63,496 nucleotides of DNA. It comes from a virus (taxonomy: Duplodnaviria > Caudoviricetes). Each line of letters starts with the position of its first letter. Position 1 is the first letter of the stretch. The translations under genes and the position numbers were made by a program. The notes beneath the pieces were generated by a model. The model was not told where the DNA came from, searched no databases, and saw only the letters and a program-made list of their open reading frames with translations. Below are positions 3,202 through 58,800 of the stretch, one piece after another. The stretch lies in the IMG/VR virus record IMGVR_UViG_3300012920_000036, positions 1 to 63,496 of that record. One strand, given 5' to 3'.

Positions 3202-4611
3202 TTAGGCCGCGATTGAAACAGAGAAGTATCGGTTCACCTGTTTGCCGTTCACTTTTGCGCCAAGGTAATTCTTATCCAGACAAGCCACCCCTGTTCCCAT
3301 CTCGTATTTCAGAAATTCTTTTGGGTCTTGGTCGTTGTCCTTGGCTCGTAGCTCGCTGTACCTGTAAGTTCCAAAGCTGTGGCGTGGGCCATCTTGAATC
3401 CAATCAATGCCGATATGTTTGGCAATGTTATTGACCGCTTGGCCAGCAGAGTCTCTGACGCTTTTAAACAATTTCTCAAAGGCAGCTTTTGTCTCCGGTG
3501 TGACTTCGCCACGCTTTTTAAATTCCTTTTGGCATTCGTGGTACAAGGGGTAGAGGCGAGCGGCACACTCATTAGGAAGAAGCCCCCCTTTAGCGACCTT
3601 GCCCCTTCCTCTAGCCTTATCGAAATATGGCCAAAGTATCTCTTTTAAGTTCGGCTTAATTTCAACATGGCGAGTGCCACCACCAAGTTTACGTTTCCCA
3701 ATGGTAATGTAATTAGAATCCCAATCGATCTGACTCCATTGAATCAGCATTGCCTCAGAAGGGCGACACGCTCCGAAAAACTGCATAGACAGTATCGGGA
3801 GCCAATCGAAGCTGCGGCCCTGTTTGTCCCAGCCGGTACTGGTTTCCAGAATTGAGTAAGTTTCATCCGGTGAAAAATATTTAACGTGATCTAAACCAAA
3901 TGATTGAGAGGTGTTGTCTTTCCCAGATTTCATTTTCAGTTTTCGGATTTCAAACTTACTATCCACTAAGCTCGGCTCTTGGTCTTGCCCCCATTTTAAA
4001 AACGCCTTAACTGACTTTGCATATTTGTCATAAGTCTCTTTCCCCCATTCCTTCCTGCGCTTCTTCCGCCAGAGATCATCCATCCGTGCCAGTAGTTCCG
4101 CGCACCCAACACCATACAGCGGGTTCTGTAACCACGGACTAAACACTAGCTCAAGATGCCGCTTGATCGAACCCACTTGGTCAATACCAACCTCGTCTGA
4201 TTTGTATTCCAAAAACCTTTCTATGCAGTCCTCCACGGGACGTAATGCAAACTGGCTCAAATACTTCTGATGTTTTTTCCAATCCCTAATAATCTCTAAC
4301 GGGGTCTTGTCTGTATCAACATCAGCCATTTCGTTTTTAATATCCTGCCATTGGCGGTTGTCGGATTCCGTCATTCCAACAGACTTGCCACCGTTCCAAT
4401 TCTGGCAGAGATCGTGGGCGAATTTATCAACAGCCTCTTCAGTTTTCCTGTTGGTGAATTTGCGATTATTTGGACTATGTACGGTTGAAGTGAAATACAA
4501 TATTTTAAAACCTTTTCGGTCACTCTCCCATTTGTATTGCAACCCCATTTCCCTAGCGGCTCTATTTTGCTTGGCCTTGCCGTTCTGCCATAATGTCCAA
4601 CTCATTTGCAT
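3202..4611 (-). CDS. int: Tyrosine integrase
   Basis: GACRPSE (catalytic R), DGPRHSFGTY, C-terminal NY; adjacent to attP. Confidence 0.9.
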   Translation of the reverse strand: MQMSWTLWQNGKAKQNRAAREMGLQYKWESDRKGFKILYFTSTVHSPNNRKFTNRKTEEAVDKFAHDLCQNWNGGKSVGMTESDNRQWQDIKNEMADVDTDKTPLEIIRDWKKHQKYLSQFALRPVEDCIERFLEYKSDEVGIDQVGSIKRHLELVFSPWLQNPLYGVGCAELLARMDDLWRKKRRKEWGKETYDKYAKSVKAFLKWGQDQEPSLVDSKFEIRKLKMKSGKDNTSQSFGLDHVKYFSPDETYSILETSTGWDKQGRSFDWLPILSMQFFGACRPSEAMLIQWSQIDWDSNYITIGKRKLGGGTRHVEIKPNLKEILWPYFDKARGRGKVAKGGLLPNECAARLYPLYHECQKEFKKRGEVTPETKAAFEKLFKSVRDSAGQAVNNIAKHIGIDWIQDGPRHSFGTYRYSELRAKDNDQDPKEFLKYEMGTGVACLDKNYLGAKVNGKQVNRYFSVSIAA

Positions 4612-15411: not shown

Positions 15412-15616
15412 CATCTCTCGCAGAGCGAAACCCACCAAAGCATCCTGCTTCGTCTGCGATCACCCCAAAGAATGCCACCATTACGACAAATCCGTGGACG
15501 CTCACCTCTGTAAAGACTGCTGGCAAATCGCCCTCGCCATAGACTCCTACCTAGCACTACCAAAATTTGAACTCAGACACCCCGACCCCAACGAATTCCC
15601 GCCGAATTACAGGTAA
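15362..15616 (+). CDS. Hypothetical zinc-finger protein
   Basis: CFVC...LCKDC; start uncertain. Confidence 0.5.
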   Translation: MIYGKRRESYVVLKKSNISRRAKPTKASCFVCDHPKECHHYDKSVDAHLCKDCWQIALAIDSYLALPKFELRHPDPNEFPPNYR

Positions 15617-15905: not shown

Positions 15906-16166
15906 GTGGCCCACATTAATGTCCATATTTTCGGACTAGAAGCAGAATGTTTGGCTTCCGAATGGGAAGACAGCTATTGCACCAACAGGGACTATATTGA
16001 TGTTGTGGCCACAGCTACTTTTTACATCGATGAAGATGAACCCAGAGATATTCACGCCGATCTAGCCGCCAATGCCAACAGCAAATTAGCTGAACCTCTG
16101 GTTTATAAGTGGGTTGATGACTGTCGTGACCAATATATCGAGATGATGAACCGACCAAGACGCTAA
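15906..16166 (+). CDS. Hypothetical acidic protein
   Basis: ORF track, GTG start. Confidence 0.5.
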   Translation: MAHINVHIFGLEAECLASEWEDSYCTNRDYIDVVATATFYIDEDEPRDIHADLAANANSKLAEPLVYKWVDDCRDQYIEMMNRPRR

Positions 16167-16537
16167 TCTCCCCACCCAACGTCCTCATCACTCAAGCCAT
16201 TCTCGTCTGCCCAGCATTTTCCACCGAAAATTACCTTGTAAGGCATGTAACACCCACACCCAGCACCATGTCCCGTGTACGGACGACACCGCTTCATAGC
16301 TTTATCGTACACAATACACCCTCCACACCCCCGCATCTTACGGAAAAACTCTCTACGGCTAATCCTACGGCCTGTAATGAGCGTTTTTAGGATGTCCTTC
16401 GCCAGATACATGCGCTGTTTCCACGTCAACTGACCAAACTCCACGCGCATAACATCAGTCCATCCCTCAAATCTACGGAATATAAACCGGACAAATCCCA
16501 TATGGGGGTATTTTAGCCACCCCTGTATATGAGACAC
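16163..16537 (-). CDS. Cys-rich hypothetical protein (CxxC...C...CGC...C)
   Basis: ORF track; lone reverse-strand gene with a metal-binding pattern. Confidence 0.6.
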   Translation of the reverse strand: MSHIQGWLKYPHMGFVRFIFRRFEGWTDVMRVEFGQLTWKQRMYLAKDILKTLITGRRISRREFFRKMRGCGGCIVYDKAMKRCRPYTGHGAGCGCYMPYKVIFGGKCWADENGLSDEDVGWGD

Positions 16538-16650
16538 GGGGTTTTTTTAGGGGGAGGGGGTTGGAAATCGAAAAATGACCGAAAGTTGAGAAGAGAGGTA
16601 TATATATATTCCAGGCGCTAAAGCAAAACCCCCCTCGCCCCCCTGCCTGG
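16537..16650. other. Candidate genome terminus or packaging region
   Basis: G-runs, (TA)n and C-runs; divergent gene boundary; C-rich to G-rich shift on the + strand seen by eye. Confidence 0.4.
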
Positions 16651-16663
16651 TCTTGGTCCTGCC

Positions 16664-16692
16664 TGTCACCTTAAACAATGAAAGGTGACAAT
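16664..16692. promoter_or_regulatory. Inverted pair of TGTCACCTT operator-like motifs just upstream of TTGACA (16699)
   Basis: TGTCACCTTA-AACAATG-AAAGGTGACAAT. Confidence 0.65.
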
Positions 16693-16771
16693 CGCCTTTT
16701 GACACATAGTAACGGGGCGGCATCGAACCAAAAAAACCGCCTCAATATCGAAATAAATAGATAAAAATAAC

Positions 16772-17347
16772 ATGGCTAATACTAATAAAACCAATAACGA
16801 AACAACAGCCCCGCAACTTAACGGCGCGGCAAACGAAAACACAATCGCTGTCGATAATAATTCCGGCAGGAGCAACCGCAACGGAACAACCGCAAAACCA
16901 AAGGCAAAAAACGAAGCCAAGGCCAAAGCACGGGCAACCCGTCGCAAAGCCAAAAAACTGACAAAAAACGGCGGGGAATTAATTCCGATTAAATTCGGTA
17001 ATAAAAAGACAAACTTTTATTTCATCGAAGGAATCAACTTGGCGGATTTTATAACCAAAAATAAAAACGTAAAGGAACTGGCGTTGTTATCTAAAGACCA
17101 CCAAAAAGACGTATTGAACCGAGTACACAATCAATTTGCGTTAACCACCGGCCGTTTTGAATCAATAAAGGTGGGCAAGGCAACCGGCAAATGGAGCCGC
17201 GAAGACGGGCAATATCGTGCTTTCGTTTCGATGCAAGGCAAGTTGCGTCGCGAAGCTTTCGACGACGAAAAACTAGCCGCCTTGGCAAAAGACAAGGCGA
17301 AAATGCTGGCAGCATATGCGGAAAGGGAAGCTTCCCTCAAAAAGTAA
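16772..17347 (+). CDS. Basic Lys/Asn-rich hypothetical protein, first early gene
   Basis: ORF track 191 aa. Confidence 0.7.
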   Translation: MANTNKTNNETTAPQLNGAANENTIAVDNNSGRSNRNGTTAKPKAKNEAKAKARATRRKAKKLTKNGGELIPIKFGNKKTNFYFIEGINLADFITKNKNVKELALLSKDHQKDVLNRVHNQFALTTGRFESIKVGKATGKWSREDGQYRAFVSMQGKLRREAFDDEKLAALAKDKAKMLAAYAEREASLKK

Positions 17348-17353
17348 AATAGT

Positions 17354-17420
17354 TTTGTTCTCCGGTTCGCCGGAGAGCAAACCAAAGCCAAGGCTATTCG
17401 CTTTGGTTTTGTTTTGTTCT
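17354..17420 (+). terminator. Double hairpin with U-rich tail after the first early gene
   Basis: TTTGTTCTCCGG-TTCG-CCGGAGAGCAAA, then AAACCAAAGC...GCTTTGGTTT followed by T-rich tail. Confidence 0.55.
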
Positions 17421-17439
17421 CTGTTCTCTGAAAAATAAA

Positions 17440-18550
17440 GCGAAAAGCATTGAAAACTGGCACGGTTGCACAAACCGCCCAAAGTAAATGGAAAAACTTT
17501 TCCCTTTTATTGTGTACATTAATTCGCCCGTGATTATTTAAGGGCGTTGACTAATGCCGACCCGCCAAGGGTTGGGGCGGTTCAACGTCGCGGAAAAATA
17601 ATTGCGTTGCGATTGTCGCAAAAAATTTGGTTGCGTTTAATAGAAAACCACCGGCAAACCGTATCGCGGGAATCAATCCTAGTCGCTTGGCAAGCGTAGG
17701 TACAAAGGGCGAAATGCCTTGTCGAACCGCAACCAAAAAAACTGACAATCAACAAACCGGCAAGGGGCGTCCGCAATTTGAAGCAATAAAAACAAAAGTT
17801 TTGCTTGGCTGAAAAGCCTATCAATAAAGCTTTCGATTTTGGTGCATGGCCAGAAAAGGCCAAGGCGAATCTATTCGCCAAGCGTACCATTTGCCCAAAG
17901 CGTTTTACAAAAAATAAAGTAAAAACGTGGCGGGGGAATTGTGTCTTGAATCAATTCAATTGATTTTTCAAGTGTTCCCCGTCAAAACCGTTTCCCTTTT
18001 TTTTTGATTAGACAAAACGTCAGGGGTGGATTGTGTCCGCTTCACTCTTTTAGGGTGTTTGGTTCAAAACCTATCGCGATTAATACCGCCGATAAATAGG
18101 GTTGGCCATGCGGTTCGGGTAAAGTGAACCGATAAGCTGACGTATTAAGGGAATTGTTCCGCATAAATCGTGCAGCATCTAGGTGTAGGATGGGAGAAGT
18201 GTTCCCTGCCGTCGCCTGGAAAATCTATTAGCCTGAGTAAATGGCAAACGCACAAGGTTTGCGTTGTGTTACTGATTGGATGCGACCGCATCGCTCATGG
18301 CTAGGATTCGCAATTGGATGGATCACGGTGGTACGAGACGTGACAAAACGCCAGAGGGGTTTCAATTAGAAACGAGTGCGTCCATTGTTAAATAATACAC
18401 TATACAGCAGACGTGACAGGTCTTGACTGGGTAGATTAATTAAATGTTAGTGGCCAATAGGAAGGGCGGCACTAGGCAACTGGTGTCGCCCTTTCCCTTT
18501 GGTGCATTGCCTTCGTTGCACTCTTGGGGTGTGACGACGGCAGCGCACCG
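17440..18550 (+). ncRNA. Candidate large structured ncRNA (several multibranch domains)
   Basis: No credible ORF over ~1.2 kb; many nested and long-range stems with G-U pairs and GNRA loops on the + strand. Confidence 0.6.
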
Positions 18551-18570
18551 CTGCTAATAGGAGTAATGTA

Positions 18571-18864
18571 ATGAGTAAAGAAGTAATGAATGAGTACGCT
18601 CGCCCTATTTGTGAGCGTTTAGAGTGCAACGTAGTCCCTGTCGTGGACTATGAATACACCAAAGATGGTGTCGTGAAGAAGGAAAGCCGTGAGTTGTATG
18701 CTAACGGCTCGTACTTGGGTCAGGTTCCGAAGAGGGCTGGTCAAAAGGATGTTGTGAACCATTGCATGGCAATGGGGATGTGTGCGGAAGCGGATGAAGT
18801 TGTTGTTTCATTCGATAAGACACCGCGCATCGAGAACGAATACCTCAATCAATTAGGCTTATGA
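18571..18864 (+). CDS. Hypothetical protein
   Basis: ORF track; AGGAG RBS upstream. Confidence 0.7.
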   Translation: MSKEVMNEYARPICERLECNVVPVVDYEYTKDGVVKKESRELYANGSYLGQVPKRAGQKDVVNHCMAMGMCAEADEVVVSFDKTPRIENEYLNQLGL

Positions 18865-18941
18865 AACCTACCAAATTGATCTTGCTGGGTGTGGCGTCGT
18901 GGTTCATTGGGCTGGGCGTTGGACACGTCCTGTTTTTTTGA
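18861..18941 (+). CDS. Small hydrophobic peptide (26 aa)
   Basis: Translated by hand: MKPTKLILLGVASWFIGLGVGHVLFF; ATGA overlap. Confidence 0.4.
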   Translation: MKPTKLILLGVASWFIGLGVGHVLFF

Positions 18942-18950
18942 TGGATCAAT

Positions 18951-18974
18951 TGTCACCTTACAATTAAGGTTAAC
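18951..18974. promoter_or_regulatory. TGTCACCTTA motif with partial inverted copy
   Basis: TGTCACCTTA-CAAT-TAAGGTTAAC, intergenic. Confidence 0.6.
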
Positions 18975-19097
18975 GCATGACGCAGCAGAACCTTTTTGAA
19001 TCAACCAAGACAACCAATCGGCGGGGTAAAGTAATTACAAAATGCCCACGACCATTGGCTGACTGGTGGTTCAACAGAATCTATAAGGAAATAAATA

Positions 19098-19448
19098 ATG
19101 ATAACGACGGAAAAACTATTCGAGATGAGCGGGTTAAGCGGCACGTTTGACACGGCCATCCCGCAGGAAAGATTCGACGAAATAGCTGATGCCCTTGGGG
19201 AGAATCCCTGGGGCATGTTTGTTTGGTGGTATCCCGCAAGAACCGACAGGGAATATGACACATGCGGGATGGGCGGCAAGTTGATGGCTGTCTCTACCTT
19301 GTTTCGCTTGGCGATGGATCGGCGGAAGCTGATTGAGAACGAAGAGAAGTATCGTTTGGTCACCCGTCTGATGGGTGGCGTGGACAAGGACATTGTCCTA
19401 GCGGATGAGAAGGAGTGCATGGAACAGGAGAAGGCATATTATGGATGA
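19098..19448 (+). CDS. Hypothetical protein
   Basis: ORF track. Confidence 0.65.
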   Translation: MITTEKLFEMSGLSGTFDTAIPQERFDEIADALGENPWGMFVWWYPARTDREYDTCGMGGKLMAVSTLFRLAMDRRKLIENEEKYRLVTRLMGGVDKDIVLADEKECMEQEKAYYG

Positions 19449-31662: not shown

Positions 31663-31933
31663 TGATTCATTAAAAGAAAAGGAAGAACACACAGAGAATT
31701 TACTTAAATGTAATGCTGACATTAAAAGATTACAGGGCGAGATAAGAAGGCTGGGTGTGCTGTGCCAAGGTATCAACAAAAGAGTGGGAGGATACCAAGC
31801 GAAGGTACAAAAGCTGAAGCTTTCCATTAAGGATGAGGAGAAAAGATTGGAACAAAAGTTGGAAGATAAATGGGTAGAGAAAAAGAGACAGGAATTTAGA
31901 AGGAACTGTTACGTCAAAAACTTAAACATATGA
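31565..31933 (+). CDS. Coiled-coil hypothetical protein
   Basis: ORF track. Confidence 0.6.
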   Translation: MNLPKEDLDKAVLNSRKIRNANKSIQGWQKRIDDSLKEKEEHTENLLKCNADIKRLQGEIRRLGVLCQGINKRVGGYQAKVQKLKLSIKDEEKRLEQKLEDKWVEKKRQEFRRNCYVKNLNI

Positions 31934-33000
31934 AATTAAAGAAGAAGAAAGGAGTTTACTATGTCTCCTTTAAAACTGCTGAAGGAACAAAAGAAGTCAG
32001 CACTAGATGCACCAACAAGGATGCAGCGTTAAGAGTCTGCGAGCAGGCAGACATAGAGAAGATGGAAGCACTACTCAAGGCGAACTCCTTGAGGGAGGAT
32101 GTGTTTCAGAAGATGAAGGGTGGCGACAAGATAACCAATGAGCAGGCAATCGAGCAGTACACAGAGTGGTCTGCATCAATTGGTAAGTCTGAAAGAACTG
32201 TGCAGGAAACCGTCATCCACATTGAGAAGTTTCTCAAAGCCAAGAAGCTGATGAAGCAAAGGCCAAGCGCCATCAACGAGAAGCTGTTGTCCAGCCATAT
32301 CAACAGCAAGGCCAGCGACAATAAGGCCAGCACCAGACGTGTGATGTTGTCTGCCGTTGCAAATTACATTGAGTACTGCAATGCCAAGGGTTGGGTGGCT
32401 GGCAACCCAGCCAAGCTGGTTAAGATTAACAAGAAGAACCTGTCCCATTATCAGAAGGAAACAGAAGAGAAGAAGGTGTTTACTGATGATGAGGTTAAAT
32501 GGATTGAGGCAATGACCGATGGGTTCTGGAACGTGGCAGTACACCTATCTTACGAGACTGGCCTGCGTATCGGTGACATCTGCCGACTGGAGTGTGCATC
32601 CCACAACGTAGAGGAATCAACGCTGGCTGTGTGGACAGAGAAGAGGGACAAGCGTGTTGAACTACCGTTGAGTAAGAAGCTGAACCTCAAGCTGCACAAC
32701 TGGAAGGGCGACAAGAACAACACAAGGACGAAAGAGTTGTTCTTCCCTACTGAAAAGGAGAGGCACGAAGACCCAAAGAAACGTAGCTACCACTCAGTAA
32801 CATTCAGAAGAATTATGGAGGCTCTGGGTATCGAGGGTAAATCATTCCATAGTTTACGAGCTACCTATGCGACCAATGCCAGCATCAATGGCAGACCTTG
32901 GTGGGAGATTGCCAAGGACATGGGGCATACAGATGTGGCTACGACTCAGGTCTACATCAAGGACAAGAACAGGTACAAGCCTGTTGCTAAAGTGGTGTGA
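31930..33000 (+). CDS. Second tyrosine recombinase (integrase/Xer-like)
   Basis: TGLRIGD, FHSLRATYAT, MGH..., TQVY. Confidence 0.92.
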   Translation: MKLKKKKGVYYVSFKTAEGTKEVSTRCTNKDAALRVCEQADIEKMEALLKANSLREDVFQKMKGGDKITNEQAIEQYTEWSASIGKSERTVQETVIHIEKFLKAKKLMKQRPSAINEKLLSSHINSKASDNKASTRRVMLSAVANYIEYCNAKGWVAGNPAKLVKINKKNLSHYQKETEEKKVFTDDEVKWIEAMTDGFWNVAVHLSYETGLRIGDICRLECASHNVEESTLAVWTEKRDKRVELPLSKKLNLKLHNWKGDKNNTRTKELFFPTEKERHEDPKKRSYHSVTFRRIMEALGIEGKSFHSLRATYATNASINGRPWWEIAKDMGHTDVATTQVYIKDKNRYKPVAKVV

Positions 33001-40273: not shown

Positions 40274-42193
40274 ATGGCACTCAGTAATATTGTAAGCAAC
40301 GTATCCTCGGATGGAAGTGGCACAAGGACACTCCCCACGGATAATTGCACCCCACGCGCCTTAATTGTCGATGATAGCTGCGGCTGCACCCTTACCAAGG
40401 CCAGCTTCAAAGCTATGACTAAAGACATGTTTGAGGCTCAAGGTATGGACGAAGTCGGCATGGCCCGAATCATCGCCCAGACTAAAGAGGCTCGACTAGC
40501 AGGCGCACAAGAGCGGACATTAACTGATCTTCTCTTGAGTCGGCACGTCTCATTGCCCACGGCAAAGGGAGGTGGAAGCGAATCGATCATTGCACCATTC
40601 AGCTTGGTTCCACGTCGCAACACAGTTAACCCGAATTACTTCCAAGTATATGCTGGGTCTGTTCCTGCGACAGGTGATGCAGCTATTGCATCTGGCGGAA
40701 CTGCAATTGATGCAACTGCAACAACAGGGGCTGGCGCTGCTCTTCCAATGGAAGGGAGTTCTAATGCTGGCATCGCAAACACGTTTGCTTGGACAATCAA
40801 GGTTTACCTTGGGCCAGACCCAGGAAGTGGTATCACCAAGCAGAACTTTAACAAGAGTTCCGTTGATAATCTTGGCCGTTTCTTCCTTCCTGGTATGTTC
40901 ATCATGGTTGAAACAAATGGTAACGGAATTTACCAAGGGCCGGGTGCTGACTCTGATAGTTACAGCGTTCAGATGGAGGTTATCGGTGCTAAGTCGCTAA
41001 CAAACCAGACTGTGAACGGTGTTGCTGGATACGAAGCAGCCGAGGTTATTGTTAAGCCCAGCGTAGATAAAGATACATGGGCTGGCTATAACGGTACTGG
41101 CCCGTTGAACTCTGGTACTGCCGCTGAGAAATTACTCAAGCAAAAGCATCAGCCAATCGCTGGCACTTTGTCTATCTTGGCTAACTCTGTCAGCGACTAC
41201 GAGAAGTGGTGCGAACAAGGCCCAGCCATCAACGACTTAAACCTTGTTGAATATTGGCAACAAACGATGCGGTGGACGCATTGTTACAACGACGAGTACT
41301 TGAAGGCTCTTGAAGCTCCTTATGCTTCGGACTGGTTCAAGAACTTCCGCAGCCTTCCACTTGCACAGCAACGCAAGCAGCAGGAGATGCTACACGAACG
41401 CTCGTTTTATAACACCGTCTTCTACGGACAGGCTATAAACGATAAGCAAACCGTTAATGGTTATACCGATCTGCCAAAGGTCTATGACTCAGCAGATGCC
41501 ACCTGTCACCTAGAGTACAAGGCCAACACGCTTGGTATTCGCACACAGCTTAATGAGTGCGGACGTGTACATCCTGGTGCAAATGCTGCCTTAAATATCG
41601 ACACGATTCTTGAAGCTGCTTACGCAGTCAAGAGAGAGCGTGAGAATACAGCAGGCACGGTTGACACCATCGATGCCATGACCGACAGGTTCACGGCTGC
41701 TAAGATTCACGACATAATGATCAAGTACTACAAGGCTAAATATAGTGCTGACATTACGTTGTTTATCCAAGCTGGTCAGAAACTGACGGATAGTGTGACC
41801 GGCAAGGTTGCCTACACCTACAACAAGTACGACATTCCAGATCATGGCCTGAGTTTAGCGGTGTTCACCGATCCGTACTTTGATGATCGTTTGACTGCCA
41901 CTACAGGTGCGCCAACGTCTCTTGCCGCCGGTATAAAAACCCGCGCACGGACGTTCTGGATGATCGACTGGTCTGATATTGCTATTAATATCATCAAGAC
42001 CAACAGCGTTCGTCGTCAGACTGATGTGGACAATGACATCTACAACTGTGTCATTCAGCCAAACGTCAATCACTACATCTTGAACTCCAAGACTTTTGAA
42101 GTTCGGGTTGGCAATCCAAATCGCCACGTTGTGATTGAGAACTTCACGGACGGGTGTCCGACCCTGACTGTTGCAGGGTGCGACCTGTCTTAA
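40274..42193 (+). CDS. Major capsid protein (large)
   Basis: Position after scaffold, followed by a terminator; contains a Gly/Ala/Thr-rich insertion. Confidence 0.75.
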   Translation: MALSNIVSNVSSDGSGTRTLPTDNCTPRALIVDDSCGCTLTKASFKAMTKDMFEAQGMDEVGMARIIAQTKEARLAGAQERTLTDLLLSRHVSLPTAKGGGSESIIAPFSLVPRRNTVNPNYFQVYAGSVPATGDAAIASGGTAIDATATTGAGAALPMEGSSNAGIANTFAWTIKVYLGPDPGSGITKQNFNKSSVDNLGRFFLPGMFIMVETNGNGIYQGPGADSDSYSVQMEVIGAKSLTNQTVNGVAGYEAAEVIVKPSVDKDTWAGYNGTGPLNSGTAAEKLLKQKHQPIAGTLSILANSVSDYEKWCEQGPAINDLNLVEYWQQTMRWTHCYNDEYLKALEAPYASDWFKNFRSLPLAQQRKQQEMLHERSFYNTVFYGQAINDKQTVNGYTDLPKVYDSADATCHLEYKANTLGIRTQLNECGRVHPGANAALNIDTILEAAYAVKRERENTAGTVDTIDAMTDRFTAAKIHDIMIKYYKAKYSADITLFIQAGQKLTDSVTGKVAYTYNKYDIPDHGLSLAVFTDPYFDDRLTATTGAPTSLAAGIKTRARTFWMIDWSDIAINIIKTNSVRRQTDVDNDIYNCVIQPNVNHYILNSKTFEVRVGNPNRHVVIENFTDGCPTLTVAGCDLS

Positions 42194-42204
42194 AGTAATC
42201 ACCA

Positions 42205-42240
42205 AGGGCGGGGGGGCTAGTCTCCCTCGCCCTATATTTG
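42205..42240 (+). terminator. Hairpin terminator after the capsid gene
   Basis: AGGGCGGGGGGG-CTAGT-CTCCCTCGCCCT followed by ATATTT. Confidence 0.65.
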
Positions 42241-42649: not shown

Positions 42650-42682
42650 TGGGGTAGGGAGGAAACTCCCTGCCCCATTTTT
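42650..42682 (+). terminator. Rho-independent terminator
   Basis: TGGGGTAGGGAG-GAAA-CTCCCTGCCCCA-TTTTT. Confidence 0.85.
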
Positions 42683-52898: not shown

Positions 52899-55800
52899 AT
52901 GCCCAACACTTTAGTAGATCATTACCGTTCTCGGTTTCCTGACGATAGCATTAGCGATCAAGGGATTATTGGCGGATTCATTCGCCAGCATGGCGAGTCT
53001 GCAATCAAGACACAATACCCTGACGCTTACTCTCAGTTTATAAAACAAAGACGGAAGGATGATGTAGACAGGTATAACCGTGTCAATCCGTCTGGGCTTG
53101 GTGGTGAGTGGTGGAAAGCGGCTAAACGCACCACAATAGGGTTAGGTGAAATTTCGTTAGCGGGATTTGGTTTAGGGGCAGAGGCTGTTGGGTGGGAGTC
53201 TGCTCGCGACTACCTAATGATGAAGGCAATGGAGCTTGGTCAGGATGCCTCTGATGTATCAATAGCTGCCGCTGAACCAGAATGGGAGGACGTTGATGGT
53301 CTTTATGAATCACTACAATATGGAGCCGCAGTCTTTGGTGAAGCAGCGCCATCCTTGGTGGAGTCACTTGCTGTTGCCGGTGCTGGTGCTTTGGTGGGTA
53401 GCGGCGCCGCTCCTGGCCCTGGTACTGTTGCTGGCGGGGTGGGCGGATTCTTCGCTAAGAACGCTGTTAAAAATCTTCTCAAGAAAGAGGTTCGCGAACG
53501 GGTAAGAGAGAACCTGGAAAAACAGGTGGGGCGAACGCTTACTGATGACGCACTAAAATACACCCTACTTAAAACTGCTTTGTCTGGAAAAGGTGCAGGC
53601 AAGGACATGATCAAGGCACAAATGAAAGCCGCTGGCGCGAAGCTGGGCGGCACAGTTGCCACCACCCTAAACAGCTACGGTTTATCCTCCGGTGAAATTT
53701 ACAACTCGTTAGCAAGCAACCCTAACGTAGACCCAGATGACGCTATGGACATTGCGCTTGTCGGAGGTCTTGTTGCTGCTGTCCCTGACACATTCCTGCC
53801 TTCATACATTATGAAGCAGTCAGGGATTGTTGATGCTCTTGCCGGTACTGTTAAAGGGAAGATGGCAAAGGAGCATGTGAAGAGGAGATTTAATGGCTAT
53901 GTTGGGAGACTAGCCAAGCAGGCTGCTATCACGATTCCGACTGAAGGTGCAACTGAAGGTTTCCAAGAGTTAGTTAACATTGCTGCTGAAAAATACGGAG
54001 ACAAGACAAGCGAACACTTCAAGGACACGGGGCGACTGTTCGCTCCTATGGATATTTATGATGACCTAACCGATGAGGAAAAAGGTCGAATCGATAGGGC
54101 AATAGTAGTTGGCGCTGCCGCCGGAAGCATGGGTGCTGTTGGTGCAGCCACAAGAAGAACGGCAGAGGATACTGATGACACAGACGTAACACCAACAGAG
54201 CCAGCAGAGGATGTAGTCGATGAAATTTACGCTCCAACAGATGAGGAGAAAGCAATTATCACAGCCTTGGTTGCTAAGGAGGTAGCTGGAGGTGACGTTA
54301 AAAAGGAGCTTACTGATGCCAATGTTTTCAGTAACAGGATTCTGACAAGATTTTATGTTTCTGAGAAAAAAAGGGCTTTAGAAGAACAGGGTTTTCGTTT
54401 GGATGCTAAAAAGGATTCAGATGAAAAAGCAGAGGTAGACGAAGACTACATTAACTTCATTAATGAACAAATTATCGTAGTCAAAAACTCAGACCTGTCT
54501 CCAAAGATTCGTAAGTACCTACTTGCACAACTCAATGAGAAATTGAGAGCAGCAAAGAAAGGTGCGAAACCTGACGCCACGACATCGATGTCTATGGCTG
54601 GCGAGGCAGTCGAAGTTAAGTCGTTACTCGATGAGCAGTTGGGCTTACTGGAACCACAGCCGGAAGCTGAACCTGTAGCTGAAACCCGTGAGCCGATAGC
54701 AATGCTGCCGGAGTCAGTCGGGGCGGAAGAAATTCGGAATAGAGAACGAGATCAGAAGTGGCAGAAAGAGGACAACGCCAAGGAAGCTGAGAAATTACAG
54801 GCACAGAAAACTGAGGGTGAAAAGAAACTCGCACTTCTTAACGAGCGATTAGCCCAAGCAAAAAAAACCGCTGTGCAAACAGAAGGTGATCGGCGTACCC
54901 GTGAAACAAATTTAGCTGCGATTTGGGCAGCCGCTTCTAAATTAGATAGACAAGAGGATAACGCAGCACAAAAAGCTTTTGAAGAGAAGCAGAAGTTTGC
55001 AAAAGCTGCTGAGAATTTAAGGCAGAAAAAAGCTAAAGCTGCTGAGAAAATTAAAGCAACAGCAGAAGCACAACAGGAAACCACAGAGGAAGAAACATCT
55101 ACACAAACCACTCAAGAAACAAAGGAGGCTTTTAACGCCGGTCACGTTGCAGATGAACCAAAGTCTAGCGCACCTGATAAAAGGCTAACGTCAACGGGAG
55201 GCATTAAGGTTCCGCCCATCTTTGAAATCACTTCTCAGATACGGGAGAGATTCAAGGGCAAACTTGATTTGTTAGGAAACATTTTAACACAGGGGGCGGG
55301 GAAAAAAGAGAAAGGCAAAGGGAAGTCTAAGAGGGATTCAAGACGCATAACTGCATTACTTGAACCAAACAGCGGAGAAGTGTATGCCGTTAAAACATGG
55401 AAGGAAGGTGGCAATGTTTGGATGGCATCTGAAGATGGAACCAGAATCAAACTTGAAACAGTAATAGAACAGGGTCTGATTCCTATATTCAGCATACTTA
55501 CAAAGCCAGATGCGAGTGTTAAAGACTATTCGGTATACCCTAACAGAAATGATTTTGATTCCACAATCGCTCAACAAGTCGCAAACGAAAAAATAGATGC
55601 AGAAATTGATACAGAAATTAAACAGCGTCCACCTCAACCTAATTCGGTTAGTGAGAAAGAGGCACAAAGTTTACCTTCAAACAAAAAGGTAAAAGCCTTA
55701 TTCGACGCAATCGTTCGTGCCGCAGTAGCCAGAGGCTTGAACATTGAAATCTTTCAGAATGAACAGGCGGCAATGGAGGGTGAGTATGGTGCGTATGCTA

Positions 55801-58800
55801 ATGCCTTTAAATTAATTAGGCTGGCACTAGCAGACTCAGCTAATCCGACAAGCGAAACGATACGACTTCTATTGCATGAGGTGGCTCATGCTGTGTTTGC
55901 CAATGAGCCGGTTCACATTCGTGAGTCGATTCACTCTGCCATTAACAACATGAGCGACAAGGCACTCCAGCTTGAGGGCTTTACGATGGCTGTACCGGAG
56001 GGAGTGAATGAAGCAGAGGTTATCCAAGAGGAACGCTTGGTGGAGACAACCTCGATCAATTTACAACAGGAAGGGTTTGACCCAACCAACGCTCAATCGA
56101 CAGCGCAGAAACTCTTTAGGTTTCTAAAGGACATTTACTACAGGGCGTCGATGGCAATCCAGCGAGCTACAGGGCTTAACATTGCCAACGATCAGTTACC
56201 TCTTCTTTATTTCCAGAACCGCATGAGGATGTTCCTTGCTGGAGACAAGGATGTTTTCAGCTACCTCAGTTTCTTGGGTGGGCCTAAACCAAACCACACA
56301 GAAACTGTGGGAATGTCACGCAAGGTGCATGACTCTTCCATAGAAATAGACATCAGCTTTCGAGACAAGTTCGTGGACTATCCAGAGGTCGTCCCTGACA
56401 ACCAACTTGCTGCAAGGCTTGGCGTCAGACAACGGCCTAGTCCCAGCAGGAGAACCACAGCGCCAGAACCTATCGTCCAGTATGGAGAGGAATACGATAG
56501 CGTACAGATGAAGACGGGAGAGGTGTACACTCTCAAGCTCATCGATGACGCTTATCGTAAAATGTACGAGGCATGGCGGGTTAGCGGAGCCACGCCAATG
56601 ACATACGAGGAGTGGCTGGCTAGTGACATGATGGGCAAGGATGACCCTGCTGTTTTGATTGCTGAGATAAACAGCGAACTGGCAGCTAACGGGCATGAGC
56701 AGATAAACCCAGACGATGTAACGAGTGTTAGCCTTGAGCAAAACAAGCAGCTACCGAAAGCCAAGGAGGCTGCTTATGTTCATATCAGAAGCGTCAGGGC
56801 CAAGCTGCAAGACAACTACATAAACGGTCAGCAAAACCTAGACCCGTCCAAACCAAAGTCGCTTTCTGAAAAGGTTAAGAAAGCAAAAGAGGCTGTCGTC
56901 AAATGGTTGCAGCGATATACCGATGCCGATGTTTCACTCAACCAGATTTACACCATGCTAGATGAGGCTGTCTCTGAACTTCGCGATGACATGCGGCAGA
57001 TCGGCAACGCATCGAGGCGCAAAGGTGAACTTTATCAGATCATCAAGCAGCTTGAAGGCAAGACGCCAGAGGCGAAGGCTGTTCAGCAAGTTGAAAAGAA
57101 ATTACTTAAACTTGTCAGGGAAACCAGAGACGGCAAAGGCAACTTCTTCGACATGGTCGAGGCAGCGGCAAGAGTTTTGCAGGACAGAGGAGACACCGAA
57201 TCACGCTGGAACACTTTAACTGTTACTCAAATAGCTGAGTTACTTGATGCATCTGGTGTTGATATTTTACAGCCTTTAATCAAAGACCGCCAAATGCTGG
57301 CGGCTGTAATTGCTATTGCCAAAAAGGATTCACTCGTAATGGATTTACTCTCTCTTCGACGCGATAAAGAGAGAGCCGGAGTTGACGAAATACTCAAAGA
57401 GTTTCTGGCGAAAGGGCGAGCAGACGAGAACACGATCAAACATGCTACCAGGAGAATCCCCAGACTTGAGAAAGTTGCGAATCGCATTTTGCTGCAACTG
57501 AACACCAAGCAGAAGGCGCTTGAATCTGATCAAAGAGAATTACAAAAACAGACTGAGCGAGTTTTGTTTTGGGATTCGGTAGCTGAAACTATCGATGACA
57601 CAATGGGTATGCTGGAGGAAGACCTTGGCATAGAGGACGCTGATAAAAACGTACAGGCATTTGCTTTGTACGACGGCGCGAAGATTCCTGTTCCAGCCAG
57701 CCCCAACACTTCCATCGAAGACCTTAAAGATCCATCGAAACAAAAGGAAGTATCACTCAAGGCCAGCAAGTTTTCTCAAGATCAAATCCGCAGATACTAT
57801 CAGCAGATTAAGACGTGGCTAGTAGCCAACGCTGACAAGCCTAAGTCCGCCACCTACCGGCAAATGGAACGTATCGCAGATGAGTTGGCGATTGCCGGTG
57901 CTGACCTAATGGACAAGAGCATTAGGCGGGTCGTGGGACAAAAACTTGCTGACTCATTTAGCAAATCATTATTCAGCATAGGCTCTGGAATCTCTCGCTT
58001 GATGGGCAGGAGAATTGAGCGTTTCCAAAACGAATGGCAACGCATGGAGAAAGAAGCTGATCTTATTGGCTCACAATGGACGCTCGCAGAAAAAGCGTTG
58101 ATGAACGAATTGCTAAAAGGGCGGTTCTATAAAATTGATAGGAGACAGGAATTTAGAGAAGACTGGTATCAAAAAGCGTTACAGTTTTTTGAGAAACGCC
58201 CAGACCTCCTTAACTTCAGTAAGGATAGTAGGGAGATGCGGCGGAATGCATATAACCAATACCTTAATAGATTATCAGAATCCAATGAGTTTGCTCAGAT
58301 CATAAAGAATAATGATAAAGTCAGGGATTTGTTTTACAAATACATGGACGCAACTGCGAAGAGTTCTGGTTGGTTTGACCAACAGCGCAGTCGTCTTCGT
58401 ATCAAGCTCGCGTCTGATCCGAAATATGGATACCTCCGTGAATCAATTGGTGAACCCATATTTACGGTAATGCGGAGACTGTCTGGTCACGCCTCTCTCA
58501 TCTACGAGATAATGAGAGAAAGCGGGTGGCTGGAAATTAAATCTGACCAACCATTCGATGACACAAGGCCGCTGTTTTCAAAAACAGTCTGGCGGGATTT
58601 TGTGAAACCAATCGTGCAGAGAGAAGGACGGTCGATGATCGGCTCTGTACACAGGCCAGATGGGGTTCAAAGATTAGCCAGACGCAGCAGTCTAATCGAA
58701 GCATATGAGAACACGGCAGTTAATGAAGCTGGCTTTTATTCGATAAAAGACTTTGCCGAGAAGCTTTACTCTCTTGAAGAAGGCGACCCTACGGACATGG

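What the first reader, a model, noticed from the sequence alone, without database searches (positions are those of the whole stretch)
17350..18560. Candidate undescribed large (~1.1-1.2 kb) multi-domain ncRNA at the head of the early region
Seen in sequence: in a genome that is otherwise nearly all coding, this stretch has no credible ORF but is tiled with multibranch domains closed by long-range stems. Examples: AACCGCCC(17473)/GGGCGGTT(17575); TTGGTTGCG(17627)/CGCAACCAA(17728); GGCAAG(17759)/TTTGCC(~17890); a long hairpin at ~17928-17985; ACGTCAG(18017)/CTGACGT(18137); AATCTATT(18222)/GGTAGATT(~18431). These enclose small hairpins such as GGCT-GAAA-AGCC, GGCGAAT/ATTCGCC and CGGTTC/GAACCG. 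The region ends in a 16-bp stem with a GCAA loop (18460-18496) and a G-U-rich ~50-nt stem (18501-18549). The mismatches I examined are mostly G-U on the + strand, which favours RNA over DNA structure. Established: phages carry large structured RNAs (GOLLD, ROOL); I recognise none of them here. Inference: a new ncRNA class or an array of RNA modules, possibly bound by the upstream Lys-rich protein (16772-17347).
Basis: partly seen in the sequence, partly recalled or inferred. Interest (0 to 1): 0.85.

Follow-up and report, generated by a model that had tools for sequence, protein, structure and literature searches.

The report
Conserved structured RNA in marine phage
A 1.2-kb gene-free stretch of an uncultured marine phage folds into RNA helices that related phages keep through matching changes on both sides of a pair, so it looks like a new structured RNA, perhaps one that controls read-through into the phage's long downstream gene block.

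Summary
The stretch is non-coding. It is the only part of the window of 200 nt or more without an ORF of 60 aa or more on either strand. None of its 27 small ORFs stays open in both relatives. It matches no Rfam family.

Only two relatives with full sequence could be fetched, at about 89% and about 65% identity. A ~360-nt multi-helix core (18101-18458), a 16-bp hairpin (18460-18496) and a 49-nt hairpin (18501-18549) are well supported as + strand RNA structure:
- Fold z = -5.8, beyond all 27 control windows.
- Separate folds of window and distant relative share 50% of pairs exactly, against 0-6% in coding controls.
- 22 of 135 pairs changed on both sides and stayed paired, against 7.3 in shuffles.

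The 5' 700 nt is a looser chain of hairpins, terminator-like elements and a segment that other variants replace.

So this is a modular structured RNA region, not shown to be one 1.2-kb RNA. It follows a conserved basic protein gene and heads the ~45-kb rightward gene block. I favour a cis-acting read-through (antitermination) leader, with a stand-alone RNA as close rival. Expression is untested.

The parts
16772..17347 (+). Gene for a 191-aa Lys/Arg-rich protein. It is the first gene of the rightward unit and a possible partner of the RNA (inference only).
   Evidence: ORF. It is kept in L002 (85% aa identity) and L005 (71%). A basic helix AKAxxRxxRRKAKKLxKN is invariant in the 6 closest sequences. 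No Pfam family matches. Only 5 clusters appear among 1.84 billion representatives. The AlphaFold model is poor, pLDDT 46.
17354..17411 (+). Two hairpins after the stop codon. The second (17383-17411) is followed by a T-run and looks like an intrinsic terminator.
   Evidence: I11, I6. One search lists 17383-17411 with 12 pairs and tail TTTTGTTCTC. In relatives the first stem is wholly replaced but still pairs (columns 15-22/29-36). One metagenome variant replaces the segment with 66 other letters.
17425..17516 (+). Conserved block with a local hairpin 17463-17477 (CGGUU-GCACA-AACCG) and a small hairpin 17489-17502 followed by CUUUUAUU.
   Evidence: Identity is 88% to L002 and 74% to L005, the highest of the 5' half. 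The hairpin stem covaries: L002 has CGGAU/AUCCG and L005 has GCCU/AGGC. The block is kept in contigs that replace both of its flanks (X2 record 14).
17517..17760 (+). Variable domain. It holds a long imperfect hairpin (about 17526-17610) and a sub-domain closed by 17626-17638/17725-17737.
   Evidence: Identity to L005 is 48%. Metagenome variants replace it with 103 or 239 unrelated letters of similar length. Separate folds give a similar nested layout, and the closing stem covaries (UUGGUUGCG/CGCAACCAA in the window, CCGUUUUGCG/CGCAAAACGG in L005). The automated pair-sharing test does not beat controls, at 0-7%.
17761..17905 (+). Cluster of small hairpins: 17807-17818 (GAAA loop), 17848-17861 and 17864-17879. 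The last two are enclosed by 17841-17845/17884-17888.
   Evidence: Compensatory changes: GGCU/AGCC becomes AUCU/AGAU in L005; GGCGAA/UUCGCC becomes GGCAAA/UUUGCC in L002; GGUGC/GUACC becomes GGUGA/UCACC in L005.
17906..18006 (+). Long hairpin 17928-17985 flanked by an A-rich run and a T9 run that can pair. It looks like a terminator in both directions.
   Evidence: I4. The 200-nt window 17800-17999 has z = -4.1. All three sequences fold the same way. Three pairs show compensatory change (columns 608/662, 611/659, 614/656). T9 is invariant.
18007..18100 (+). Linker. It is identical between window and L002 apart from 2 bases, but unlike in L005. It could hold a promoter (not shown).
   Evidence: Identity is 97.9% to L002 and 38.8% to L005. 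No promoter-like site lies in it on the + strand; the only + site in 17350-18560 is a 9-of-12 match at 18367-18396.
18101..18458 (+). Core structured RNA domain of about 358 nt. Helices: P1 18102-18109/18450-18457; P2 18111-18117/18125-18131; P3 18136-18153/18157-18176 (inside the invariant block 18134-18177); P4 18178-18196/18202-18220; P5 18222-18238/18293-18308 with P5a 18244-18252/18260-18267 and P5b 18279-18283/18288-18292; P6 18315-18320/18379-18384 with P6a 18323-18327/18339-18343 and P6b 18359-18363/18369-18373; P8 18405-18412/18420-18429.
   Evidence: Separate folds of window and L005 give the same layout. P6a has 4 of 5 pairs changed on both sides (UCACG/CGUGA becomes CUGUG/CACAG). 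P1, P2, P4, P5, P5a and P6b each have 1-3 such pairs. Identity is 99.4% to L002 and 65.7% to L005. The core is present at about 96-99% identity in 4 of 4 marine runs laid.
18460..18496 (+). 16-bp hairpin with a GCAA loop, followed by UUUCCCUUU (partly inside the stem). It looks like a terminator with a weak U-tract.
   Evidence: I9; helices 14-15: one compensatory pair in the main stem and one in its two-pair apical extension, plus two changes through G-U. The consensus terminator scan did not list it.
18501..18549 (+). G-U-rich hairpin of 20 pairs that ends about 10 nt before the Shine-Dalgarno sequence (AGGAG 18560-18564) of the next gene.
   Evidence: helix 16: 100% of cells paired, 4 pairs changed on both sides, 4 changed on one side. 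The 200-nt window 18400-18599 has z = -7.4 on + and -3.0 on -.
18571..18864 (+). First downstream gene (97 aa, no known family). It is not tied to the RNA.
   Evidence: In one sponge-metagenome contig 18554-18823 is replaced by 228 other letters, while the RNA before it and the genes after it are kept (X16 record 11).

Best explanation
The stretch encodes structured RNA read from the + strand, built from modules rather than shown to be one 1.2-kb molecule. The well-supported part is a ~360-nt multi-helix core closed by a long-range helix (18101-18458). A strong terminator-like hairpin and a second long hairpin next to the ribosome-binding site of the next gene follow it directly. Upstream lie hairpins, two or three further terminator-like elements and a fast-changing hairpin domain.

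The unit begins with a conserved basic protein gene and heads the ~45-kb rightward block that holds the terminase and virion genes. I infer that the RNA acts in cis on the transcript that carries it. It would fold as it is made and decide whether RNA polymerase stops at the local terminators or reads on into the long block. That is processive antitermination or attenuation, possibly helped by the basic protein encoded just upstream.

Shown: the stretch is non-coding, its + strand structure is conserved, and its position relative to neighbouring genes is fixed.

Inferred: that it is transcribed, that the hairpins terminate, that read-through is controlled, and that the protein takes part.
For: Non-coding.

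Structure:
- Fold excess is strongest on + for 18006-18500, at z = -5.8 against a control minimum of -4.8 in 27 windows.
- Three-sequence consensus folding energy per nt is 2-3 times that of coding controls. The covariation term is favourable (+5.9 and +8.1 in the script's sign) and unfavourable in controls (-3.8 to -0.2) (sign checked).
- Separate folds of window and L005 share 77 of 154 pairs exactly and 116 of 154 within one column, against 0-7 pairs in each of four coding controls of equal or higher identity.
- 22 of 135 pairs changed on both sides, against 7.3 +/- 2.3 in 500 shuffles (0 of 500 reach it) and 0-4 when partners are slid.

Strand: + beats - in energy and in changes through G-U.

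Place:
- The same order of basic protein gene, RNA and downstream genes is seen in both full relatives and in the contigs laid.
- A new rightward unit starts at 16772, after a conserved - strand gene pair.
- All long ORFs from 18.6 kb to the end are on +.
- Strong terminator-like hairpins lie inside that block at 42205 and 42650.
- Terminator-like elements are in and around the RNA.

Precedent: conAn on pLS20. A 172-codon protein gene plus a structured intergenic RNA of 260-600 bp sits at the head of a long operon. It acts only in cis, and a central 238 bp is flanked by 20-bp inverted repeats (PMC8191782, sections 18, 21, 22, 26 read).
Against: - No transcript data. No RNA run was on record among the runs found, so transcription, ends and strand are untested.
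- Only three full sequences, two of them nearly identical in the core. Every compensatory change there is a difference between L005 and the other two sequences. The structure tested was derived from the same sequences.
- The hairpin 18460-18496 has a weak U-tract, and the terminator scan did not call it.
- No boxA-like motif in any of the three sequences. The basic protein has no known family.
- A 360-nt ornate core is far larger than put or nut elements. It is bounded on both sides by terminator-like hairpins, which fits a separate RNA gene just as well.
- The first downstream gene can be swapped, so the RNA is not a leader specific to that gene.
- High identity to L002 (99.4%) may be a recently exchanged block. 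Nearby genes at 18865-19440 are 98% identical too.
Confidence: 0.42

Rival explanations
1. A stand-alone, trans-acting large RNA gene of about 400-500 nt (about 18007-18500). It would have its own promoter in the linker and its own terminator (18460-18496), in the manner of the large phage-associated RNAs GOLLD and ROOL. The upstream hairpins would be separate terminators or small RNAs.
For: - The core is closed by a long-range helix. Terminator-like elements bound it: A-run/hairpin/T9 ending at 18006, and the hairpin 18460-18496.
- Its size and many-helix layout resemble known large structured RNAs, some of which occur in phages. For PMC12286853 and PMC5737381 I saw only the search listing and the start of the abstract.
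- The neighbouring gene can be swapped while the RNA is kept.
- The core is carried at 96-99% identity in 4 of 4 marine runs laid.
Against: - No promoter-like site precedes the core on +. The host is unknown, so this is weak evidence.
- The linker that should hold the promoter is only 39% identical in L005.
- No match to GOLLD, ROOL, OLE, HEARO, raiA or any other Rfam family.
- No tRNA genes nearby. That GOLLD and ROOL often lie near tRNA genes is recalled, not from a call.
- The position is fixed in every variant seen.
Confidence: 0.33
2. Only a set of independent local hairpins (terminators, stabilisers, RNase sites) between two transcription units, with no higher-order RNA and no function beyond ending and protecting transcripts.
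For: - Several hairpins carry T-runs.
- The 5' 340 nt shows no shared pairs above controls.
- Its fold z-score is within the control range.
- Segments are replaced freely between variants.
Against: - The long-range helices P1 (348 nt apart), P5 and P6 are recovered independently in L005, and P1 and P5 carry compensatory changes.
- A 44-nt block (18134-18177) and several loops are invariant at about 65% overall identity. Terminators do not need that.
- No terminator needs 360 nt with about 10 nested helices.
Confidence: 0.12
3. A DNA-level element, such as a replication origin, a packaging or recombination site, or structured single-stranded DNA, rather than an RNA.
For: It is a long conserved non-coding stretch with A- and T-runs and inverted repeats. 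It lies downstream of the replication genes.
Against: - Many pairs are G-U on + only, and several are invariant in all three sequences. The - strand folds much worse: z = -2.0 against -5.8, and consensus energy -114 against -152.
- No iteron-like direct repeats. The repeat families are short and weak.
- The O-like initiator and DnaB genes are 5-7 kb away, and the terminase gene is 15 kb away.
- Stem sequences change while pairing is kept. That is selection on a folded single strand, not on a protein-binding duplex.
Confidence: 0.06
4. Decayed genes or unrecognised small protein genes.
For: Small ORFs exist on both strands, 27 of 25 aa or more. One of them (18276-18395) is open in all three sequences.
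Against: - 26 of 27 are broken or frameshifted in at least one relative. The remaining one is open in L005 only across three 1-nt gaps, with a different peptide.
- Substitutions are spread evenly over the three codon phases.
- The sequence is under constraint, with a 44-nt invariant block and compensatory pairs, unlike pseudogenes.
Confidence: 0.03

Closest known systems
conAn bipartite antitermination system of conjugative plasmids (pLS20 ConAn1 protein plus conAn2 RNA; PMC8191782: abstract and sections 18, 21, 22, 26 read; supplements closed)
   Same: - A small protein gene (172 codons there, 191 here) is followed directly by an unusually long structured intergenic region (260-600 bp there).
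- The pair sits at the head of a very long one-directional operon that has internal terminators.
- The central part is flanked by inverted repeats, as the core here is closed by P1.
- The elements are poorly conserved in sequence between systems.
   Different: - Phage, not conjugative plasmid. Marine host unknown, not Gram-positive.
- The non-coding stretch is 2-4 times longer here.
- No activity has been tested.
- I could not compare the proteins, because ConAn1 sequences were not on hand and the supplementary tables were closed. No Pfam or PHROG family links them.
- In pLS20 the flanking inverted repeats were not needed for activity (section 22).
Lambdoid read-through control: HK022 put RNA, lambda N/nut, and lambda Q with the pR' leader (6S RNA) and tR'. 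These facts are recalled. For PMC9378689 I saw only the search listing and the start of the abstract.
   Same: - A regulator gene sits just upstream of a leader that ends in a terminator, ahead of a long late operon.
- A nascent RNA structure acts in cis on RNA polymerase.
- The basic helix of the upstream protein resembles arginine-rich RNA-binding motifs.
- One small GAAA-loop hairpin (17807-17818) is kept with a covarying stem.
   Different: - put is about 70 nt and nut about 50 nt, while the core here is about 360 nt.
- No boxA-like motif.
- The GAAA loop is not kept in L002.
- The protein has no detectable relation to N or Q.
Large ornate bacterial and phage RNAs GOLLD, ROOL, OLE, HEARO, raiA (Rfam families; for PMC12286853 and PMC5737381 I saw only the search listing and abstract start)
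   Same: A long, many-helix, conserved non-coding RNA without a known function, carried by a phage.
   Different: - No match to any of these models at gathering score or at E <= 10.
- No tRNA genes nearby.
- Rare: only two IMG/VR contigs and one JGI metagenome contig were found.
Transcriptional riboswitches and other attenuators
   Same: A folded domain closed by a P1 helix is followed 2 nt later by a terminator-like hairpin, upstream of coding genes.
   Different: - No Rfam riboswitch match.
- No conserved alternative (antiterminator) pairing found. The one candidate (18201-18214/18535-18548) is not clearly kept in L005.
- At about 360 nt the domain is larger than the riboswitch aptamers I recall; that comparison comes from no call.

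Membership tests
Any Rfam 15 family (including GOLLD, ROOL, OLE, HEARO, raiA, group I/II introns, RNase P, tmRNA, 6S, riboswitches) | Score at or above the family's gathering threshold against its covariance model | tested here: not met
   No matches in the whole window at gathering score. At E <= 10 on 17200-18700 there were 10 weak matches. The best were 27.9 bits against a threshold of 55 (Phe_leader) and 27.0 against 45 (ar9), both on the terminator hairpins at 17268-17415. None covers the core.
tRNA / tmRNA | Cloverleaf or tRNA-like domain found by ARAGORN | tested here: not met
   0 genes in the window.
conAn-type bipartite antitermination | Protein gene followed by a long structured intergenic region at the start of a long operon | tested here: met
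   Gene 16772-17347, then 1.2 kb non-coding, then + strand genes to 63.5 kb. This shows likeness of layout only.
conAn-type bipartite antitermination | Protein homologous to ConAn1 | not tested
   No ConAn1 sequence was on hand and supplements were closed. Pfam, PHROGs and the Atlas gave no family for the protein. The paper reports only 13-33% identity even among true ConAn1 orthologues (section 26).
conAn-type bipartite antitermination | Cis-acting read-through of downstream terminators | not testable with these tools
   This needs a reporter assay.
Lambda N/nut-type antitermination | boxA motif plus a boxB hairpin with a GNRA-like loop in the leader | tested here: not met
   No boxA-like word in any of the three sequences. 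One GAAA hairpin (17807-17818) is kept in L005 with a GAAAAA loop, but not as GNRA in L002. The motif definitions are recalled, not from a call.
Intrinsic terminator (for 18460-18496) | G+C-rich stem directly followed by a U-tract | tested here: inconclusive
   The stem has 16 pairs. If the stem is taken to end at GCCC the tail is UUUCCCUUU. The consensus scan did not list it. Hairpin 17383-17411 was listed.
Protein-coding gene | Open frame kept in relatives, with substitutions biased to the third codon position | tested here: not met

The most novel reading that the evidence does not exclude
This is a new class of large ornate phage RNA: a ~360-460-nt core inside a ~1.1-kb modular leader. Together with an arginine/lysine-rich protein encoded just upstream, it would form a two-part switch that licenses RNA polymerase to read a 45-kb phage operon. 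That would be a phage counterpart of conAn with a much larger RNA. Alternatively, it could be a GOLLD/ROOL-like RNA particle made by a marine phage.
Probability: 0.3. Interest if true: 0.8.

Novelty: new variant of a known kind. Interest (0 to 1): 0.6.

Why it matters
Large structured RNAs without a protein product are rare, and several of the known ones (GOLLD, ROOL) are carried by phages with functions still unknown. This would be a further such RNA with no Rfam family. It comes from an uncultured marine phage lineage that turned up in 23 runs from 14 studies besides the possible source sample.

Its position suggests a testable job. It follows a conserved basic protein gene, is bracketed by terminator-like hairpins, and sits ahead of a 45-kb one-directional gene block. 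RNA-based control of read-through into phage late genes would extend the put and conAn type of mechanism to a much larger RNA and to marine phages.

The present evidence rests on three sequences and no expression data. It is a well-founded candidate, not a demonstrated RNA.

Tried and rejected
Search for more relatives. None found beyond one IMG/VR contig (L002, L003, L004 and L006 are the same record) and one JGI metagenome contig (L005).
- Protein-guided scans of viral contigs.
- Protein-guided scan of metagenome contigs.
- Protein-guided scan of genome contigs: no relative.
- DNA word or pattern scans: viral; genomes, 0 hits.
- One search used a pattern with a wrong spacer length (my error). 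It could not match even the known relative and is uninformative.
- GenBank phages, blastn distant mode on 17000-19000: no match. tblastn with the basic protein: no match.
- The protein searches show further relatives of the basic protein (P0004-P0006, P0008-P0010).

Expression. No RNA holder was listed among the 24 runs, so nothing can be said on expression.

Internal duplication. Several short repeats lie about 480-490 nt apart, but the two halves align only weakly: local score 53, against a shuffle mean of 33 and maximum of 50. I do not claim a duplication.

Second copy elsewhere in the window: none.

Promoter. No convincing sigma-70-like site lies ahead of the core. A TGGCAC...TTGC word at 17456-17468 has the wrong spacing for sigma-54 (consensus recalled) and is not kept in relatives. 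I rejected it.

Protein partner. The AlphaFold model of the basic protein was too poor to search with (pLDDT 46). The Atlas gave no usable hit. The Atlas gave only unnamed viral clusters for the - strand 124-aa protein. I did not use complex prediction, because it does not test protein-RNA binding.

Window-only fold carried over to L005. Among pairs with a change, 43% stayed paired on +, against 23-38% in six coding-control rows counting both strands (25-38% on + alone). That is a modest excess, which shows that much of a single 1.1-kb minimum-energy fold is not conserved.

Supplementary files of PMC8191782 (tables S4, S5; figures S2, S4) were not seen. They may hold ConAn1 and conAn2 sequences that would allow a direct comparison.
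Full report
**Context.** The window is one complete IMG/VR virus record: 63,496 nt, linear, estimated 89% complete. The gene content is that of a temperate-type tailed phage.
- An integrase and an Arc-like repressor lie on the - strand at 3.2-6.0 kb.
- Then, on the + strand, come a Sak4-like protein, an exonuclease, SSB, an O-like initiator and DnaB (6.6-12.9 kb), followed by an HU-like protein at 15567.
- From 18.6 kb to the end there is an unbroken + strand block. It holds many small genes, a DNA methyltransferase, a second integrase-like gene, the large terminase (33968) and virion genes.
- The terminase is only about 25% identical to any terminase in GenBank phages, so the lineage is uncultured.
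- A conserved - strand gene pair (16163-16537 and 16547-16723; 75% and 39% aa identity in the distant relative) interrupts the + strand genes.
- The Lys/Arg-rich protein gene (16772-17347) therefore opens a new rightward unit, and the finding lies directly behind it. This is not the 'head of the early region'. It is the head of the long rightward block.

- The stretch has no credible gene. Positions 17891-18446 are the only 200 nt or more in the window without an ORF of 60 aa or more on either strand.
- Of 27 ORFs of 25 aa or more, 26 are broken or frameshifted in a relative. The last (18276-18395) stays open in L005 only across three 1-nt gaps, with a different peptide.
- Substitutions show no three-base period.
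- The quoted stems exist.
- Folding exceeds dinucleotide shuffles. The whole stretch has z = -5.9 on + and -3.5 on -. For 18006-18500 it is -5.8 on + and -2.0 on -. For 17420-18005 it is -4.0 on +.
- Twenty-seven control 495-nt windows on the + strand have mean -1.3, sd 1.5 and minimum -4.8. The 3' part lies beyond all controls. The 5' part does not.
- Rfam gives nothing, and ARAGORN finds no tRNA or tmRNA.

**Relatives.** Only two could be fetched.
- An IMG/VR contig (L002 and its other handles) is about 89% identical over this neighbourhood.
- A 4.9-kb JGI metagenome contig (L005) is about 60-70% identical.
- Both have the same order: basic protein gene, about 1.2 kb non-coding, next gene.
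- Against L002 the core is 99.4% identical, while the basic protein gene is 78% and the 97-aa gene is 94%. Genes further right are also about 98%, so a recently exchanged block cannot be excluded.
- Against L005 the core is 65.7% identical, about the same as the genes. It contains a 44-nt block (18134-18177) and several loops that are invariant.
- Thirty-one-letter words from 17000-19000 occur in 24 marine, seawater, estuary and sponge metagenome runs of 15 studies, one of which may be the source sample. Most hold 19-30% of the words.
- In the 4 runs I laid (4 studies), contigs cover about 17760-18560 at about 96-99% identity. Meanwhile 17349-17425, 17516-17621 or 17518-17760, and the 97-aa gene are replaced by unrelated letters of similar length in some contigs.

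**Structure conservation.** I used three tests with controls.
1. *Consensus folding of the three sequences.*
   - Energy is -152 kcal/mol for 18006-18560 on + (-114 on -) and -99 for 17420-18005.
   - Two coding controls give -125 over 1033 columns and -50 over 585 columns.
   - The covariation term is favourable for both non-coding halves and unfavourable for both controls. The sign convention was checked.
2. *Independent single-sequence folds of window and L005, compared through a plain MAFFT alignment.*
   - For 18098-18560 they share 77 of 154 pairs exactly (50%) and 116 within one column (75%) on +. On - the figures are 49% and 59%.
   - Four coding controls of equal or higher identity share 0-6% exactly.
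   - 17740-18012 shares 20%.
   - 17420-17760 shares 0%, no better than controls.
3. *Pair counts on the consensus structure of 18098-18560.*
   - 96.3% of cells are paired.
   - 22 of 135 pairs changed on both sides, against 7.3 +/- 2.3 in 500 shuffles (none reaches 22) and 0-4 with slid partners.
   - The best helix is P6a: UCACG/CGUGA becomes CUGUG/CACAG, 4 of 5 pairs, around a conserved 11-nt loop.
   - The caveat is that this structure was derived from the same three sequences, and the window and L002 are almost identical here. In effect the signal is one pairwise comparison.

A weaker test carried the window's own minimum-energy fold over to L005. Among changed pairs, 43% stayed paired, against 23-38% in the six control rows of both strands. 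Much of any single 1.1-kb fold is therefore not conserved.

**Anatomy (details in 'parts').**
- Two hairpins follow the stop codon of the basic protein gene. The second is a scan-positive terminator.
- A conserved 92-nt block comes next, with a covarying local hairpin (17463-17477).
- A variable domain (17517-17760) keeps its nested-stem layout and the closing stem 17626-17638/17725-17737, by eye and by compensatory change, while its sequence is largely free.
- A cluster of small hairpins with compensatory changes follows.
- A 100-nt extended hairpin is flanked by an A-run and T9.
- A 94-nt linker differs between lineages.
- The core has about ten helices closed by P1 (18102-18109/18450-18457).
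- A 16-bp GCAA hairpin comes 2 nt later, with UUUCCCUUU.
- A 20-pair G-U-rich hairpin ends about 10 nt before the Shine-Dalgarno sequence of the next gene.
- Many pairs are G-U on + and would be A-C on -. This argues for RNA made from the + strand rather than for a DNA structure.

- Two are supported: 17627/17728 and the long hairpin.
- One cannot be judged: 17759/17890.
- Three lose to better-supported local pairings: 17473/17575, 18017/18137 and 18222/18431.

**What it does (inference).** The region is co-oriented with its neighbours and fixed in position. Terminator-like hairpins divide it and end it. It lies between a conserved basic protein gene and a 45-kb one-directional block that has strong internal terminator-like hairpins (42205, 42650).

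The closest functional precedent I could read is conAn of pLS20. There, a 172-codon protein gene plus a 260-600-bp structured intergenic RNA at the head of a long operon gives cis-acting processive antitermination (PMC8191782, sections 18, 21, 22, 26). Lambdoid put, N/nut and the Q/6S/tR' arrangement are the classical parallels; those facts are recalled. I therefore favour a cis-acting read-through leader (0.42).

A stand-alone RNA of about 400-500 nt, bounded by the T9 element and the GCAA hairpin, fits nearly as well (0.33). Its size and layout recall GOLLD and ROOL. Smaller weights go to independent hairpins only (0.12), a DNA element (0.06) and coding sequence (0.03).

The protein's invariant basic helix (AKAxxRxxRRKAKKLxKN) resembles arginine-rich RNA-binding motifs, but nothing here tests binding. 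The protein family is tiny, with 5 clusters in 1.84 billion representatives, and has no known domain.

**Novelty and verdict.** There is no Rfam family. I found no description in two full-text searches, neither aimed specifically at this element; one search was a search for antitermination precedents. The element is a credible new structured RNA of an uncultured marine phage lineage. It is best described as a ~460-nt well-supported 3' part inside a modular 1.2-kb non-coding region. The evidence is limited to three sequences, and there are no expression data. Interest 0.6.

Noticed in passing
window 16163-16723 (- strand): Two conserved - strand genes (124 aa and 58 aa; 75% and 39% aa identity in L005) sit inside the otherwise + strand block, convergent with the 86-aa gene that ends at 16166. 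They have no known family. They may be a small regulatory module that separates two rightward transcription units.
   Followed up: partly
window 3202-4611 (-) and 31930-33000 (+): The phage has two integrase-like genes. The second lies just before the terminase region.
   Followed up: no
window 52899-61313 (+): An ORF of 2804 aa has no PHROG match at E <= 0.001.
   Followed up: no
window 42205-42233 and 42650-42677 (+): Two strong terminator-like hairpins (12 pairs each, 8-9 of them G-C) lie right after the 639-aa gene 40274-42193, inside the long rightward block. This is consistent with a need for read-through control.
   Followed up: no
window 18201-18214 and 18535-18548: A 14-nt complementarity (86%) links the 3' side of core helix P4 to the 3' arm of the last hairpin. 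It is a possible alternative pairing, but by eye it is not clearly kept in L005.
   Followed up: partly
L002, between the two 3' hairpins (aligned to window about 18497-18500): The close relative carries a 6-nt insertion that repeats the neighbouring letters, in the short spacer between the GCAA hairpin and the last hairpin.
   Followed up: no
window 17516-17760; laid contigs of runs X2 and X15: In some marine variants this segment is replaced by unrelated sequence of nearly the same length (103 letters for 104, 239 for 241), while both flanks are kept. The length is conserved but the sequence is not.
   Followed up: partly
protein P0002: A protein identical to the window's basic protein is on record on a 70,447-nt contig. 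A longer version of this genome than the 63.5-kb window therefore exists.
   Followed up: no
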